Part shown: positions 31,886 to 33,835 of the stretch, in pieces | Position numbering within the stretch: the stretch's first letter is position 1 | Layout: every line of letters begins with the position of its first letter | Source: Nitrosopumilus sp. | GTDB lineage: Archaea > Thermoproteota > Nitrososphaeria > Nitrososphaerales > Nitrosopumilaceae | Assembly: GCA_965197525.1 (NCBI GenBank) | Contig: OZ240211.1 | Coordinates: forward strand, 960,001-1,024,000 | DNA: 64,000 bases | Reading direction: 5' to 3' | Position numbers and translations under genes: made by a program | Notes under the pieces: model-generated | What the model was told of the DNA's origin: nothing | The model's input: only the letters and a program-made list of their open reading frames with translations | The model's database searches: none

Positions 31886-32251
31886 TATAAGTAAAAATAG
31901 CGATTTAAATTATAATAATCTTTTCCTACGAGGTAGGCGGTGTAAATGTAGCGTAGAGCAAGACGTGATCTGTGCTCAAAGTCGCACGCTCAGATCATGG
32001 TTTGAGAAATTACAGTAGACGATTGCTTTATACTGCCAATATGAGCAGACTGCCAAACTAGAGTACATGGATAACTCCAACGAGAACCACAGATACAGCA
32101 ACAATAACAAAAAAACCTACTGCTCCTACAAGGATTGACTATAAAGAAAAAAACATTGTGTATAGACGAATCATAATTTTTGATGGATTTAAGACTGAGT
32201 CGTAAAGAGATTTATTGATTTTACAATAGGATTATAAACATTATTTCTTAT

Positions 32252-33531
32252 GGTTCTGTCGGGTTAACGGGTGCTGAGCAATAAATAATTAACCTTGCAT
32301 TCTATACTACGTGTTGAAGGCACACAAGTCAATAGCACAAAAACATACTCCAAACTCCGACCTAATGGACATGATGGTTACATTCACAAAGATGGTCAAC
32401 CACTGCATCAGGATCGGGTTAAGGGAAGATACCCACAACATGAAGCGGATGTCTATATTATGTTACCACGAACTCAGAAACTACGACATTTTATCTTCGT
32501 ACAAACTCAATGCAATATCAAGAGCTGCCGGCATCCTGGCAAATAGAGATCAATCAGTCAAACGTGGCATCAAAGTTAGGTACCCAGTCGTAAAAAATCC
32601 GTTTATCACAAACTGTTACGGCATAAAACATAATGGTGCTCTGTTGACAATCCCGTACAAGAACAGAAACCCTATCAACATCTTGCTGAACGAACACACT
32701 CAAAAAATACTGTCCGATCCCGCCTTGACGGTATGCTCATTTTCATTGACTGCCTTCAACATCAGTCTTTGTATTTCGAAAGAAGTACGAGAGATAGAGT
32801 GTACCAAGACAGTGGGAATAGACAGAAATCTTAGAAATGTAACCTGTGGAAATTACGAAGAGGTGACATTCTACAAAACCAACAAGTTGTTATCCATCAA
32901 AGAGAACACAATACATGCTAGAACTGGTTTTCGCAGAAATGACCGAAGAAAGAAAGGTCAATTCTACAAAGAAAGGCAACGAAGAATGTCCAACAGAACG
33001 AAACAATACCTGCACAGAATCTCAAAAAGCATAGTGGATAACGCTGTCAAGAAGAAGACTGTCATCGTACTTGAGAATCTGAAAGGAATTAGAAAACTGT
33101 ACAAAAAAGGAAACGGTCAAGGTAACAAATACAGGCGTAGAATGAATGGATGGCAATTCTTTGAACTACAACGCCAAATAGAATACAAAGCCCAATGGGT
33201 CGGGCTCCCAATCAAATTTGTAGACCCAAAACGCACGAGCACGCAATGTCCAAGATGCGGAAAGAAACTCCAAGAGGACATGCAACACAGTCGTAAAATG
33301 TCGTGTAATAATTGCGGATTATACATGGATAGAGATATCATCGCTGCCATGAACATATCACGCAAACTGTCCCCTAGGTTTAGGGATAGTAGAGATGGCA
33401 TACATGAAGCGCAGTCTGGCATTTTTGAGCCAGCAATGATGGAATCCAGTACACCGGTAATCCAGATAGTCGATATGTCAAAGTCGGGTAGTCGGTGCGT
33501 TACTTGAAGCACCCGTTAACCCGACAGAACC
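32252..33531 (+). mobile_element. Non-autonomous tnpB element with 24-bp perfect terminal inverted repeats and an 8-bp target-site duplication
   Basis: Left TIR GGTTCTGTCGGGTTAACGGGTGCT (32252-32275); right TIR AGCACCCGTTAACCCGACAGAACC (33508-33531); TTTCTTAT at 32244-32251 and 33532-33539. Confidence 0.93.
32311..33507 (+). CDS. tnpB: TnpB RNA-guided endonuclease (IS200/IS605 OrfB, Cas12f-like)
   Basis: RuvC-I VGIDRNL, RuvC-II VLENLKGI, TSTQCPRCG...CNNCG zinc finger and RuvC-III DRDIIAAMNI. Confidence 0.95.
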   Translation: MLKAHKSIAQKHTPNSDLMDMMVTFTKMVNHCIRIGLREDTHNMKRMSILCYHELRNYDILSSYKLNAISRAAGILANRDQSVKRGIKVRYPVVKNPFITNCYGIKHNGALLTIPYKNRNPINILLNEHTQKILSDPALTVCSFSLTAFNISLCISKEVREIECTKTVGIDRNLRNVTCGNYEEVTFYKTNKLLSIKENTIHARTGFRRNDRRKKGQFYKERQRRMSNRTKQYLHRISKSIVDNAVKKKTVIVLENLKGIRKLYKKGNGQGNKYRRRMNGWQFFELQRQIEYKAQWVGLPIKFVDPKRTSTQCPRCGKKLQEDMQHSRKMSCNNCGLYMDRDIIAAMNISRKLSPRFRDSRDGIHEAQSGIFEPAMMESSTPVIQIVDMSKSGSRCVT

Positions 33532-33700
33532 TTTCTTATATACATCCAATATGTCTATCAGATATTACGTGGATAACCATTTGAAAATTCGTAACAGATA
33601 TTGTATAATTTGTACATTTTAACCGATATGTTTATCGTGTTGTCAACATACGGTACGATTTACACTTGTGCAGATTTACAAAATTTTAAAGACCTGTTTT

Positions 33701-33730
33701 CTTCTTCTTCTTCTTCTTCTTCTTCTTCTT
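33701..33730. repeat. (CTT)10 intergenic microsatellite
   Basis: Direct read of the sequence. Confidence 0.95.
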
Positions 33731-33835
33731 GATCAATCTTGATATGTAATGGAATAACAAATACTGTAATCACATCCAGCTTCTAATCTCAACAATGTAA
33801 GATTAGCTAATAAAAATAAAAGAATGAAAAATCGA

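What the first reader, a model, noticed from the sequence alone, without database searches (positions are those of the whole stretch)
32244..33539. TnpB nuclease packaged in IS6-like terminal inverted repeats with an 8-bp target-site duplication
Seen: a tnpB with all three RuvC acidic motifs and the zinc finger is bounded by perfect 24-bp TIRs (GGTTCTGTCGGGTTAACGGGTGCT) and an exact TTTCTTAT duplication, with no transposase inside. Established: IS200/IS605 (HUH TnpA) and IS607 (serine recombinase) elements, the usual tnpB carriers, have neither TIRs nor TSDs. GGTTCTGT is the terminus of IS6-family elements such as IS257/IS431 and IS1216, and IS6 elements make 8-bp duplications. Inference: this is a non-autonomous unit moved in trans by a DDE (IS6-type) transposase while carrying an RNA-guided nuclease. 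That would be a prokaryotic TnpB-DDE partnership analogous to Fanzors in eukaryotic TIR transposons. I cannot confirm from the sequence that it is undescribed.
Basis: partly seen in the sequence, partly recalled or inferred. Interest (0 to 1): 0.9.

Follow-up and report, generated by a model that had tools for sequence, protein, structure and literature searches.

The report
TnpB guide-RNA module in IS6-like ends
A small mobile element in a sponge-associated Nitrosopumilus genome carries only the RNA-guided nuclease TnpB and its guide RNA but has the ends and 8-bp target duplications of an IS6-like transposon, so a transposase encoded elsewhere in the genome probably moves it.

Summary
In detail: perfect 24-bp inverted ends, an exact TTTCTTAT duplication, and one intact tnpB with no transposase inside.

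The element belongs to a large family. The 2.2-Mb genome holds 49 tnpB-like loci and 51 guide-RNA cores. Twenty-five copies carry distinct perfect 8-bp duplications, and some are miniature copies that keep only the guide-RNA part.

The same genome has seven IS240/IS6-type DDE transposase genes. Those whose ends could be traced lie in GGTTCTGT-ended elements, three of them with 8-bp duplications. It has no Y1 TnpA and no serine recombinase.

Altae-Tran et al. 2023 already describe TnpBs linked to DDE transposases, with inverted repeats and solo copies moved in trans. I found no paper naming an IS6-type partner. This scan has met the family before, in this genome and in others.

New here:
- The right inverted repeat forms the last hairpin of a covariation-supported guide-RNA scaffold.
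- The two bases just 5' of the left duplication are T then purine in 47 of 47 duplication-flanked copies across several Nitrososphaeria genera. The figure is 4 of 30 flanks for transposase-carrying relatives.

This looks like a TAM, with the duplication plus right flank serving as the guide. That step is inferred, not shown.

The parts
32241..32243 (+). TTA directly 5' of the left target duplication: candidate TAM (family consensus T/T/purine)
   Evidence: T 26/35, T 33/35 and purine 34/35 at these three positions, with nothing on the mirrored side. T-purine in 25/25 and 22/22 duplication-flanked copies. Its function as a TAM is inferred.
32244..32251 (.). Left copy of the 8-bp target-site duplication TTTCTTAT
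32252..32275 (+). Left terminal inverted repeat, IS6-like (GG tip, CTGT motif)
   Evidence: IS6 family repeat consensus as given in PMC7986276.
32276..32310 (+). A/T-rich leader with a TATA-like box (AATAAATAATTAA); likely the element's own promoter
   Evidence: Read from the sequence. The miniature copies keep a comparable A/T-rich stretch after the left repeat. Promoter function is inferred.
32311..33507 (+). tnpB, 398 aa, RuvC D-E-D triad and C4 zinc finger intact
   Evidence: Median dN/dS is 0.12 among 24 intact paralogues.
33366..33485 (+). Conserved structured core of the candidate guide-RNA (omega RNA) scaffold, overlapping the last 47 codons of tnpB
   Evidence: 36 pairs, 98.9% of cells paired against 25-39% when slid, 7 pairs with compensatory changes; its 30-mer is found in 51 genome copies and is exact or nearly exact in most; dS drops to 0.33 here.
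33483..33525 (+). Terminal hairpin: GTCGGGT...GGTGC pairs with GCACC...ACCCGAC. The 3' arm is the right inverted repeat.
   Evidence: the same hairpin forms in most subfamilies, and the 5' arm changes along with each subfamily's repeat sequence.
33508..33531 (-). Right terminal inverted repeat. Its last bases, AGAACC, stay unpaired, and the final ACC is not T-purine, so the occupied site would not be cut.
33532..33539 (.). Right copy of the target-site duplication TTTCTTAT
33532..33551 (+). Candidate guide (duplication plus right flank), if transcription reads through the right repeat
   Evidence: Inferred from the TAM-like motif and by analogy with IS605 TnpB and Fanzor RNAs (PMC10530073). 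Neither the read-through nor the guide length was shown.

Best explanation
This is a non-autonomous transposon of about 1.28 kb. It consists of IS6-like inverted ends around one cargo: a TnpB nuclease gene with its own promoter and its guide-RNA scaffold.

Shown:
- It belongs to a family that has inserted many times, making 8-bp duplications.
- TnpB is under purifying selection.
- A structured RNA overlaps the 3' end of tnpB.
- Transposases of IS240/IS6 type with the same kind of ends are encoded elsewhere in the genome and across the genus. They were never found within 2.5 kb of the 80 tnpB loci sampled in public genomes.

Inferred:
- Those transposases bind the shared end pattern (GGTTCTGT, 4 variable nt, then TTNNCG) and move the element in trans.
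- The guide RNA is transcribed through the right inverted repeat, which forms its last hairpin, into the flank. The guide is then the 8-bp duplication plus the following host bases.
- TnpB uses the T-T-purine that lies just 5' of the duplication in the empty site as its TAM. The empty allele (TAM, single duplication, right flank) is cut and repaired from an occupied copy, as in IS605-type restorative homing.
- The occupied site escapes cutting. The right junction is preceded by ACC, and the left junction matches the guide for only 8 nt.
- Miniature copies that keep only the promoter region, scaffold and ends would supply extra guides.
For: Family and mobility:
- The genome holds 49 tnpB-like loci.
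- 25 guide-RNA-bearing copies have distinct perfect 8-bp duplications.
- Within subfamilies, copies are 98.4-99.5% identical at different sites.

Partner transposase:
- There are 7 PF13610 (IS240/IS6-type) genes in the genome, and 5 have open frames of about 380 aa.
- Those whose ends could be traced lie between GGTTCTGT repeats. Three of them have an exact 8-bp duplication.
- One of the two IS1595-type genes is nested in a remnant of such an element.
- 15 such autonomous elements with duplications were found in the genus, and none carries tnpB.
- Seven of 8 tnpB-positive genus genomes also have this transposase, against 24 of 73 tnpB-negative ones. Related genomes are not independent.
- No Y1 TnpA or serine recombinase is present.

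Nuclease and RNA:
- Catalytic residues are invariant.
- Median dN/dS is 0.12.
- The scaffold is supported by covariation.
- A terminal hairpin built from the repeat forms in most subfamilies.
- Ten miniature copies keep the scaffold.

TAM-like motif:
- T-purine just 5' of the duplication occurs in 47/47 duplication-flanked copies, against 8/47 on the mirrored side and 4/30 flanks of autonomous elements. Fisher p is about 1e-16.
- It holds across several repeat subfamilies and several genera: Nitrosopumilus, Nitrosotenuis, Nitrosotalea.
Against: - No transposase in this genome has a repeat identical to the focal copy's beyond the shared pattern. The focal copy is a singleton, 84% identical to its nearest relative.
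- IS6-family elements are thought to move by copy-in cointegrate formation without excision (PMC7986276). That leaves less need for restorative homing.
- Autonomous elements also show an orientation-specific T-rich flank (TTT in 8/15, on the side distal to the transposase start). Part of the motif may therefore be a target preference of the transposase.
- The conserved scaffold ends 22-95 nt before the element end, and the linker varies in length. This is unusual for a TnpB scaffold.
- No RNA evidence shows read-through into the flank.
Confidence: 0.75

Rival explanations
1. The T-T-purine next to the duplication is not a TAM. It is an asymmetric target-site preference of the transposase that moves these elements, and TnpB plays no part in where copies are found.
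For: Autonomous IS240-type elements without tnpB also carry an orientation-specific T-rich triplet at the same position. TTT occurs in 8/15 on one side. Positions -11 and -10 may therefore reflect the enzyme.
Against: The third position differs sharply. It is a purine in 34/35 tnpB elements and T in 1/35. In autonomous elements it is mostly T, and T-purine occurs in only 1/15 and 3/15 flanks. The motif follows the orientation of the guide-RNA module across at least six repeat subfamilies and several genera.
Confidence: 0.3
2. The guide lies inside the element, directly after the conserved GTCAAAGTC, and is fixed cargo rather than flank-derived. The nuclease would then target a fixed sequence such as the element's own ends.
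For: Conservation among copies stops at GTCAAAGTC. What follows resembles each copy's own repeat. Earlier first-reader notes proposed this reading.
Against: The 16-mers after GTCAAAGTC have no consistent second target in the genome. They match the left repeat for only about 7 nt before indels. They fold onto the right repeat as a hairpin. This reading does not explain the flank motif in 47/47 copies.
Confidence: 0.12
3. The elements are moved by a DDE transposase of another family (IS1595-type or unknown), and the IS240-type genes only share similar termini.
For: Two IS1595-type genes lie next to GGTTCTGT-like ends. No IS240-type element has the focal repeat exactly.
Against: One IS1595-type gene lies beside a 171-bp repeat pair rather than inside it. 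The other appears nested in an IS-B-like remnant, because its first 9 residues copy the IS-B transposase start. Fifteen complete elements with a duplication and GGTTCTGT-type ends (two start AGTTCTGC or GGTGCTGT) enclose IS240-type genes.
Confidence: 0.08
4. It is an ordinary tnpB-only (IS1341-type) member of IS200/IS605, moved by a Y1 TnpA, and the repeats and duplication are incidental.
For: The cargo (tnpB plus a 3' scaffold and a hairpin near the right end) is that of IS1341-type elements, and NCBIfam places the protein in the TnpB family.
Against: 47 copies carry different perfect or near-perfect 8-bp duplications and matched inverted repeats. No PF01797 or PF00239 gene is present in a 99%-complete single-contig genome.
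Confidence: 0.02

Closest known systems
DDE-transposase-associated TnpB branches (DDE-1 to DDE-6) and solo TnpBs with matching ends, Altae-Tran et al. 2023 (PMC10691335)
   Same: A prokaryotic TnpB sits inside inverted terminal repeats. The 3' end of tnpB lies close to the transposon end. Solo tnpB copies are flanked by the ends of a DDE transposon and are taken to be moved in trans.
   Different: A 2026 review (PMC13565253) names the partner families as ISL2, IS630 and IS1031, not IS6. I could not read the supplement. Those branches were defined by a transposase gene next to tnpB. Here, none of 80 loci has one within 2.5 kb. That paper also notes that TnpB lacks clusters of more than 30 copies, whereas this genome has about 49 loci.
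IS6 / IS26 family insertion sequences (Varani et al. 2021, PMC7986276)
   Same: The repeats have a GG tip and a CTGT motif, duplications are 8 bp, and the partner elements carry a DDE_Tnp_IS240 catalytic domain.
   Different: The focal element has no transposase. The partner transposases are about 380 aa, with N-terminal SWIM and IS1/IS1595-like zinc domains, and score just below NCBIfam's IS6 cut-off. Only one ISfinder IS6 member is reported to carry a passenger gene.
IS1341-type tnpB-only elements of IS200/IS605, and the restorative homing of ISDra2-type TnpB
   Same: The element carries tnpB, a scaffold overlapping its 3' end, a hairpin near the right end, and a short T-rich motif 5' of the left end. 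The logic that the occupied site is immune also fits.
   Different: This element has inverted repeats and duplications, the genome has no Y1 TnpA, and the duplication would form the first 8 nt of the guide.
Fanzor nucleases in eukaryotic TIR transposons (PMC3627910, PMC10530073)
   Same: A TnpB-type nuclease is carried by DDE-type transposons. The guide RNA overlaps the terminal inverted repeat. In some cases the TAM agrees with the insertion site.
   Different: This case is archaeal. The TnpB is small and typical (DRDxN motif), has no introns or NLS, and is never co-encoded with the transposase in the sample.

Membership tests
TnpB (OMEGA effector) | RuvC-like nuclease with a D-E-D triad and a TNB zinc ribbon, scoring above family thresholds | tested here: met
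   NCBIfam guided_TnpB scores 133 bits (cut-off 100). Pfam PF07282 scores 74.8 bits (cut-off 26.3). D171, E255 and D342 and four Cys are invariant.
TnpB (OMEGA effector) | A structured guide-RNA scaffold overlapping the 3' end of the gene | tested here: met
   Covariation-supported structure. The 30-mer core is conserved in 51 copies. Synonymous divergence drops in this region. No Rfam family matched.
TnpB (OMEGA effector) | RNA-guided, TAM-dependent DNA cleavage | not testable with these tools
   There is only indirect evidence: the T-T-purine flank motif.
IS6 family (partner elements and the ends of the focal element) | Short inverted repeats with a GG tip and a cTGTt motif | tested here: met
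   GGTTCTGT is present at both ends. The consensus is quoted in PMC7986276.
IS6 family (partner elements and the ends of the focal element) | 8-bp direct target repeats | tested here: met
IS6 family (partner elements and the ends of the focal element) | An IS6-type DDE transposase encoded in the element | tested here: not met
   The focal element has no transposase. Partner elements have PF13610 above its cut-off, but NCBIfam IS6 scores 103-121 bits against a cut-off of 125. I therefore call the focal element 'IS6-like, non-autonomous' and not an IS6 member.
IS6 family (partner elements and the ends of the focal element) | Copy-in transposition through cointegrates | not testable with these tools
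   Copies with swapped duplication halves occur, for example L056 and L059 in OZ245003.1. These fit recombination between copies but do not prove the pathway.
IS200/IS605 (IS1341 group) | No inverted repeats and no target duplication | tested here: not met
   Both are present.
IS200/IS605 (IS1341 group) | A Y1 HUH TnpA available in the genome | tested here: not met
   PF01797 gave 0 matches in a 99%-complete genome, while control genomes gave matches.

The most novel reading that the evidence does not exclude
A whole clade of TnpB guide-RNA modules across Nitrososphaeria lives only as a hitch-hiker in IS6-like ends. It has built the transposon's inverted repeat into its guide RNA, and it uses the target duplication plus flank as guide with T-T-purine as TAM. 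A DDE-moved element would then run IS605-style homing. This would show how an RNA-guided nuclease copes with a transposase that duplicates variable targets.
Probability: 0.45. Interest if true: 0.75.

Novelty: new variant of a known kind. Interest (0 to 1): 0.6.

Why it matters
TnpB is thought to pay its way in IS605 and IS607 elements by cutting the scar-less empty site and forcing repair from an occupied copy. Reviews treat DDE transposons as a poor fit, because they make duplications at variable targets, and they note that such pairings are rare in prokaryotes (PMC13565253).

This family is abundant, spread across several genera, and under purifying selection. It therefore offers a natural test case. 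The flank motif predicts a TAM and a guide that begins with the duplication. Both predictions can be checked with standard TAM-depletion and RNA-end mapping.

It also gives a compact (398 aa) archaeal TnpB with a defined scaffold, and a candidate transposase-plus-ends pair for transposition assays.

Tried and rejected
- **Nucleotide-level empty site for this copy.** Relatives are at most 87% identical in the neighbouring gene, and the intergenic DNA does not align. Only synteny-level absence of tnpB was seen, in G017, G005 and G009.
- **RNA evidence.** Contigs from sponge metatranscriptome runs X4 and X5 cover parts of tnpB and the scaffold. One 104-nt contig of another subfamily runs about 72 nt past GTCAAAGTC. 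Contigs cannot show RNA ends or strand, and DNA can be present in such libraries, so I draw nothing from this. A TIR-to-TIR joint in X1 has only a 24-nt side and may be an assembly effect.
- **Rfam.** No family matched the element at E up to 1.
- **Internal-guide idea.** No consistent genomic targets were found.
- **A composite element with both transposase and tnpB.** None was found in 30 transposase loci or in 80 tnpB loci.
- **A second batch of 20 more distant transposase loci.** Only one more element with a duplication turned up.
- **Supplement of Altae-Tran 2023.** It is not held, so I could not see whether one of DDE-1 to DDE-5 is this clade.
- **ISfinder.** It could not be queried.

Full report
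**Observation**

The window holds GGTTCTGTCGGGTTAACGGGTGCT at 32252-32275 and its exact reverse complement at 33508-33531. TTTCTTAT lies directly outside both, at 32244-32251 and 33532-33539. Shuffled sequence gave no match to the 24-mer.

The only long ORF between the repeats is 32311-33507 (+), 398 aa, and its stop codon abuts the right repeat. It is a TnpB:
- NCBIfam guided_TnpB scores 133 bits against a cut-off of 100.
- Pfam Cas12f1-like TNB scores 74.8 bits against 26.3.
- The RuvC residues D171, E255 and D342 and the four zinc-finger cysteines are invariant in an alignment reaching 35% identity.

**The family in this genome**

The window is 960001-1024000 of a single-contig genome of 2.21 Mb, 39.6% G+C and 99% completeness. 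Its DNA is found in sponge metagenomes. A close relative of the element family sits in a Nitrosopumilus MAG.

- The genome holds 49 tnpB-like loci and 51 copies of a strongly conserved 30-mer from the 3' region.
- Thirty-five loci have both exact ends. Twenty-five are full length and 10 are miniature copies of 259-655 bp.
- With one mismatch allowed in the terminal octamer, 29 elements have a perfect 8-bp duplication, each different. Twenty-five of these carry the 3' RNA module.
- Within subfamilies, copies are 98.4-99.5% identical at different sites, so transposition has been fairly recent.
- The focal copy is a singleton, 84% identical to its nearest full-length relative.
- Twenty-four of 25 full-length copies keep an open frame of about 400 codons. 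Median pairwise dN/dS is 0.12 at a median dS of 0.87. The protein is therefore under purifying selection across old paralogues.

**The partner transposase**

The genome has no Y1 TnpA (PF01797) and no serine recombinase (PF00239), although control genomes gave matches in the same searches.

It has seven genes with the IS240/IS6-type DDE domain above Pfam's cut-off. Those whose ends could be traced lie inside elements that begin GGTTCTGT:
- An intact 1970-bp IS at 746475-748444 has 30-bp perfect repeats, the duplication CTATTGTG, and a 378-aa transposase.
- A 3190-bp element at 699962-703151 adds a DNA methyltransferase gene.
- Several decayed copies also exist.

NCBIfam's best hit for these proteins is IS6, at 103-121 bits against a cut-off of 125. 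They also carry N-terminal SWIM and IS1/IS1595-like zinc domains. I therefore call them IS6-like rather than IS6.

The repeat of the 1970-bp IS shares its first 19 nt with one tnpB subfamily. All repeats, autonomous or not, fit the pattern GGTTCTGT, four variable bases, then TTNNCG.

In the genus, 31 of 81 genomes have this transposase and 8 of 81 have this TnpB. Seven of those eight have both, but related genomes are not independent. Fifteen autonomous elements with 8-bp duplications were recovered, and none contains tnpB. Conversely, none of 80 tnpB loci from many Nitrososphaeria has a full transposase within 2.5 kb.

Two IS1595-type genes lie near GGTTCTGT-like ends. One sits beside a small repeat pair, and the other seems nested in a remnant of the methylase-type element. 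I take these as bystanders, with some doubt.

**The RNA module**

The last 120 nt or so before GTCAAAGTC (window 33366-33485) fold into a conserved structure. Thirty-six pairs were counted, with 98.9% of cells paired against 25-39% when the partners are slid. Seven pairs and 32 cells show compensatory changes. The sequences are paralogues, so the shuffle control overstates the support. The slid control is the fairer one.

Synonymous divergence falls from 0.74-1.04 to 0.33 in this part of the gene.

Downstream, a linker of variable length folds back on the right inverted repeat in most subfamilies. The 5' arm changes as the repeat changes:
- focal copy: GUCGGGU with ACCCGAC
- 1288-bp type: AAGUUAU with AUAACUU
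- IS-A-like type: GUAAUC with GAUUAC

In every case the tail AGAACC is left free. No such fold-back lies at the left end, which favours an RNA-level role.

The miniature copies are internal deletions. They keep the left repeat, an A/T-rich stretch, the last 260-340 nt, and the right repeat. They are scaffold-only elements of the kind known for OMEGA systems.

**The flank motif**

When elements are oriented in the tnpB sense, the three bases just 5' of the left duplication are T (26/35), T (33/35) and purine (34/35). The mirrored position beyond the right duplication shows nothing.

| Set | T-purine on tnpB-upstream side | T-purine on mirrored side |
|---|---|---|
| This genome, perfect duplication | 25/25 | 5/25 |
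| Other Nitrosopumilus, Nitrosotenuis, Nitrosotalea and unclassified genomes, duplication at least 7/8 | 22/22 | 3/22 |
| Autonomous IS240-type elements with duplications | 3/15 | 1/15 |

The genome-wide frequency of T-purine is 0.146. Autonomous elements instead show TTT in 8/15 on the side distal to the transposase start.

The purine therefore follows the nuclease module and not the repeat type or the host.

In an empty site the order would be T-T-purine, single duplication, right flank. This is the TAM-then-target arrangement, if the guide is what lies beyond the right repeat. The occupied site would be immune for two reasons. The right junction is preceded by ACC, and the left junction matches the guide for only 8 nt.

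The alternative of an internal fixed guide found no consistent genomic target.

I rate the TAM reading at roughly even odds. The T-rich flank of autonomous elements shows that the transposase may set part of the motif. As with IS605, a TAM that mirrors the transposase's own target preference is what one would expect.

**Comparison with what is known**

Altae-Tran et al. 2023 describe six TnpB branches associated with DDE transposases, all with inverted terminal repeats. They also describe solo TnpBs whose ends match those of transposase-carrying relatives, and they conclude that some are moved in trans. A 2026 review names the partners as ISL2, IS630 and IS1031.

Full-text searches for TnpB together with IS6 found no paper linking the two. 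The IS6 family review reports a passenger gene in only one member. Fanzor RNAs likewise overlap the inverted repeat, and some Fanzor TAMs agree with the insertion site.

The kind of system is therefore known. The IS6-like partner, the strict separation of cargo and transposase, the high copy number, the repeat-built hairpin, and the motif next to the duplication are what this case adds.

Earlier notes of this scan had already found the family in this genome and in at least five others. One follow-up reached the same closest-known family, and a later check lowered its bolder reading. I could not see which part failed.

**Verdict**

The claim of a first prokaryotic TnpB-DDE partnership does not stand. 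The TAM and guide reading is a testable inference.

Noticed in passing
Own genome 699962-703151 (L020), outside the window: An IS6-like element with 30-bp perfect GGTTCTGTTAAC repeats carries, besides its 383-aa transposase, an N6/N4 DNA methyltransferase gene (Pfam PF01555, 147 bits). This is a cargo-carrying IS of a family said to have almost no passenger genes. Its two flanks do not match, so it has probably recombined.
   Followed up: partly
L056 and L059 (OZ245003.1, Nitrosopumilus MAG): Two identical 1291-bp tnpB elements have swapped duplication halves. One has TAGAAACT on the left and TTATGTTA on the right, and the other has the reverse. This is a footprint of recombination between copies, or of cointegrate resolution. 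It explains the copies that lack a duplication.
   Followed up: partly
Genus loci L068, L081, L082, L088, L089, L098, L104, L235: Autonomous IS240-type elements have TTT or TTTT directly next to the duplication on the side distal to the transposase start (8/15). This is an orientation-specific flank bias in a DDE element without tnpB. Three of them share similar duplications (TGTTTTAG, TGTTCTAG, TGTTTGAC).
   Followed up: partly
L127 and L129 (genome G033): A second TnpB clade, only 35% identical, sits in the same kind of GGTTCTGTCAAGTTATAG ends with 8-bp duplications. It has TAT, not T-T-purine, 5' of the duplication in both copies. If this holds in more copies, the motif changes with the nuclease clade.
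   Followed up: no
Own genome 291139-291164 (L001): A solo copy of the focal element's repeat, 26 nt identical, is followed by unrelated sequence. It is an orphan end left by a deletion or rearrangement.
   Followed up: partly
Own genome 614180-616697 (L234): An IS1595-type transposase gene begins with the same nine residues (MNARQTRGQ) as the IS6-like transposase of the methylase element. It lies behind a GGTTCTGTTAAC end. It is probably an IS1595 nested in an IS6-like remnant, itself abutted by a tnpB element.
   Followed up: partly
Window 33693-33731: A run of TTC/CTT triplets (about 12 units) lies in the intergenic DNA about 160 nt to the right of the element. Contigs of public runs break there.
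   Followed up: no
Own genome 883991-884841: An 851-bp element has perfect 24-bp GGTTCTGTAACATTATCG repeats, the duplication TATTACTG, and only a 96-aa ORF. No guide-RNA core was detected, yet CTTA lies next to the duplication on one side.
   Followed up: no
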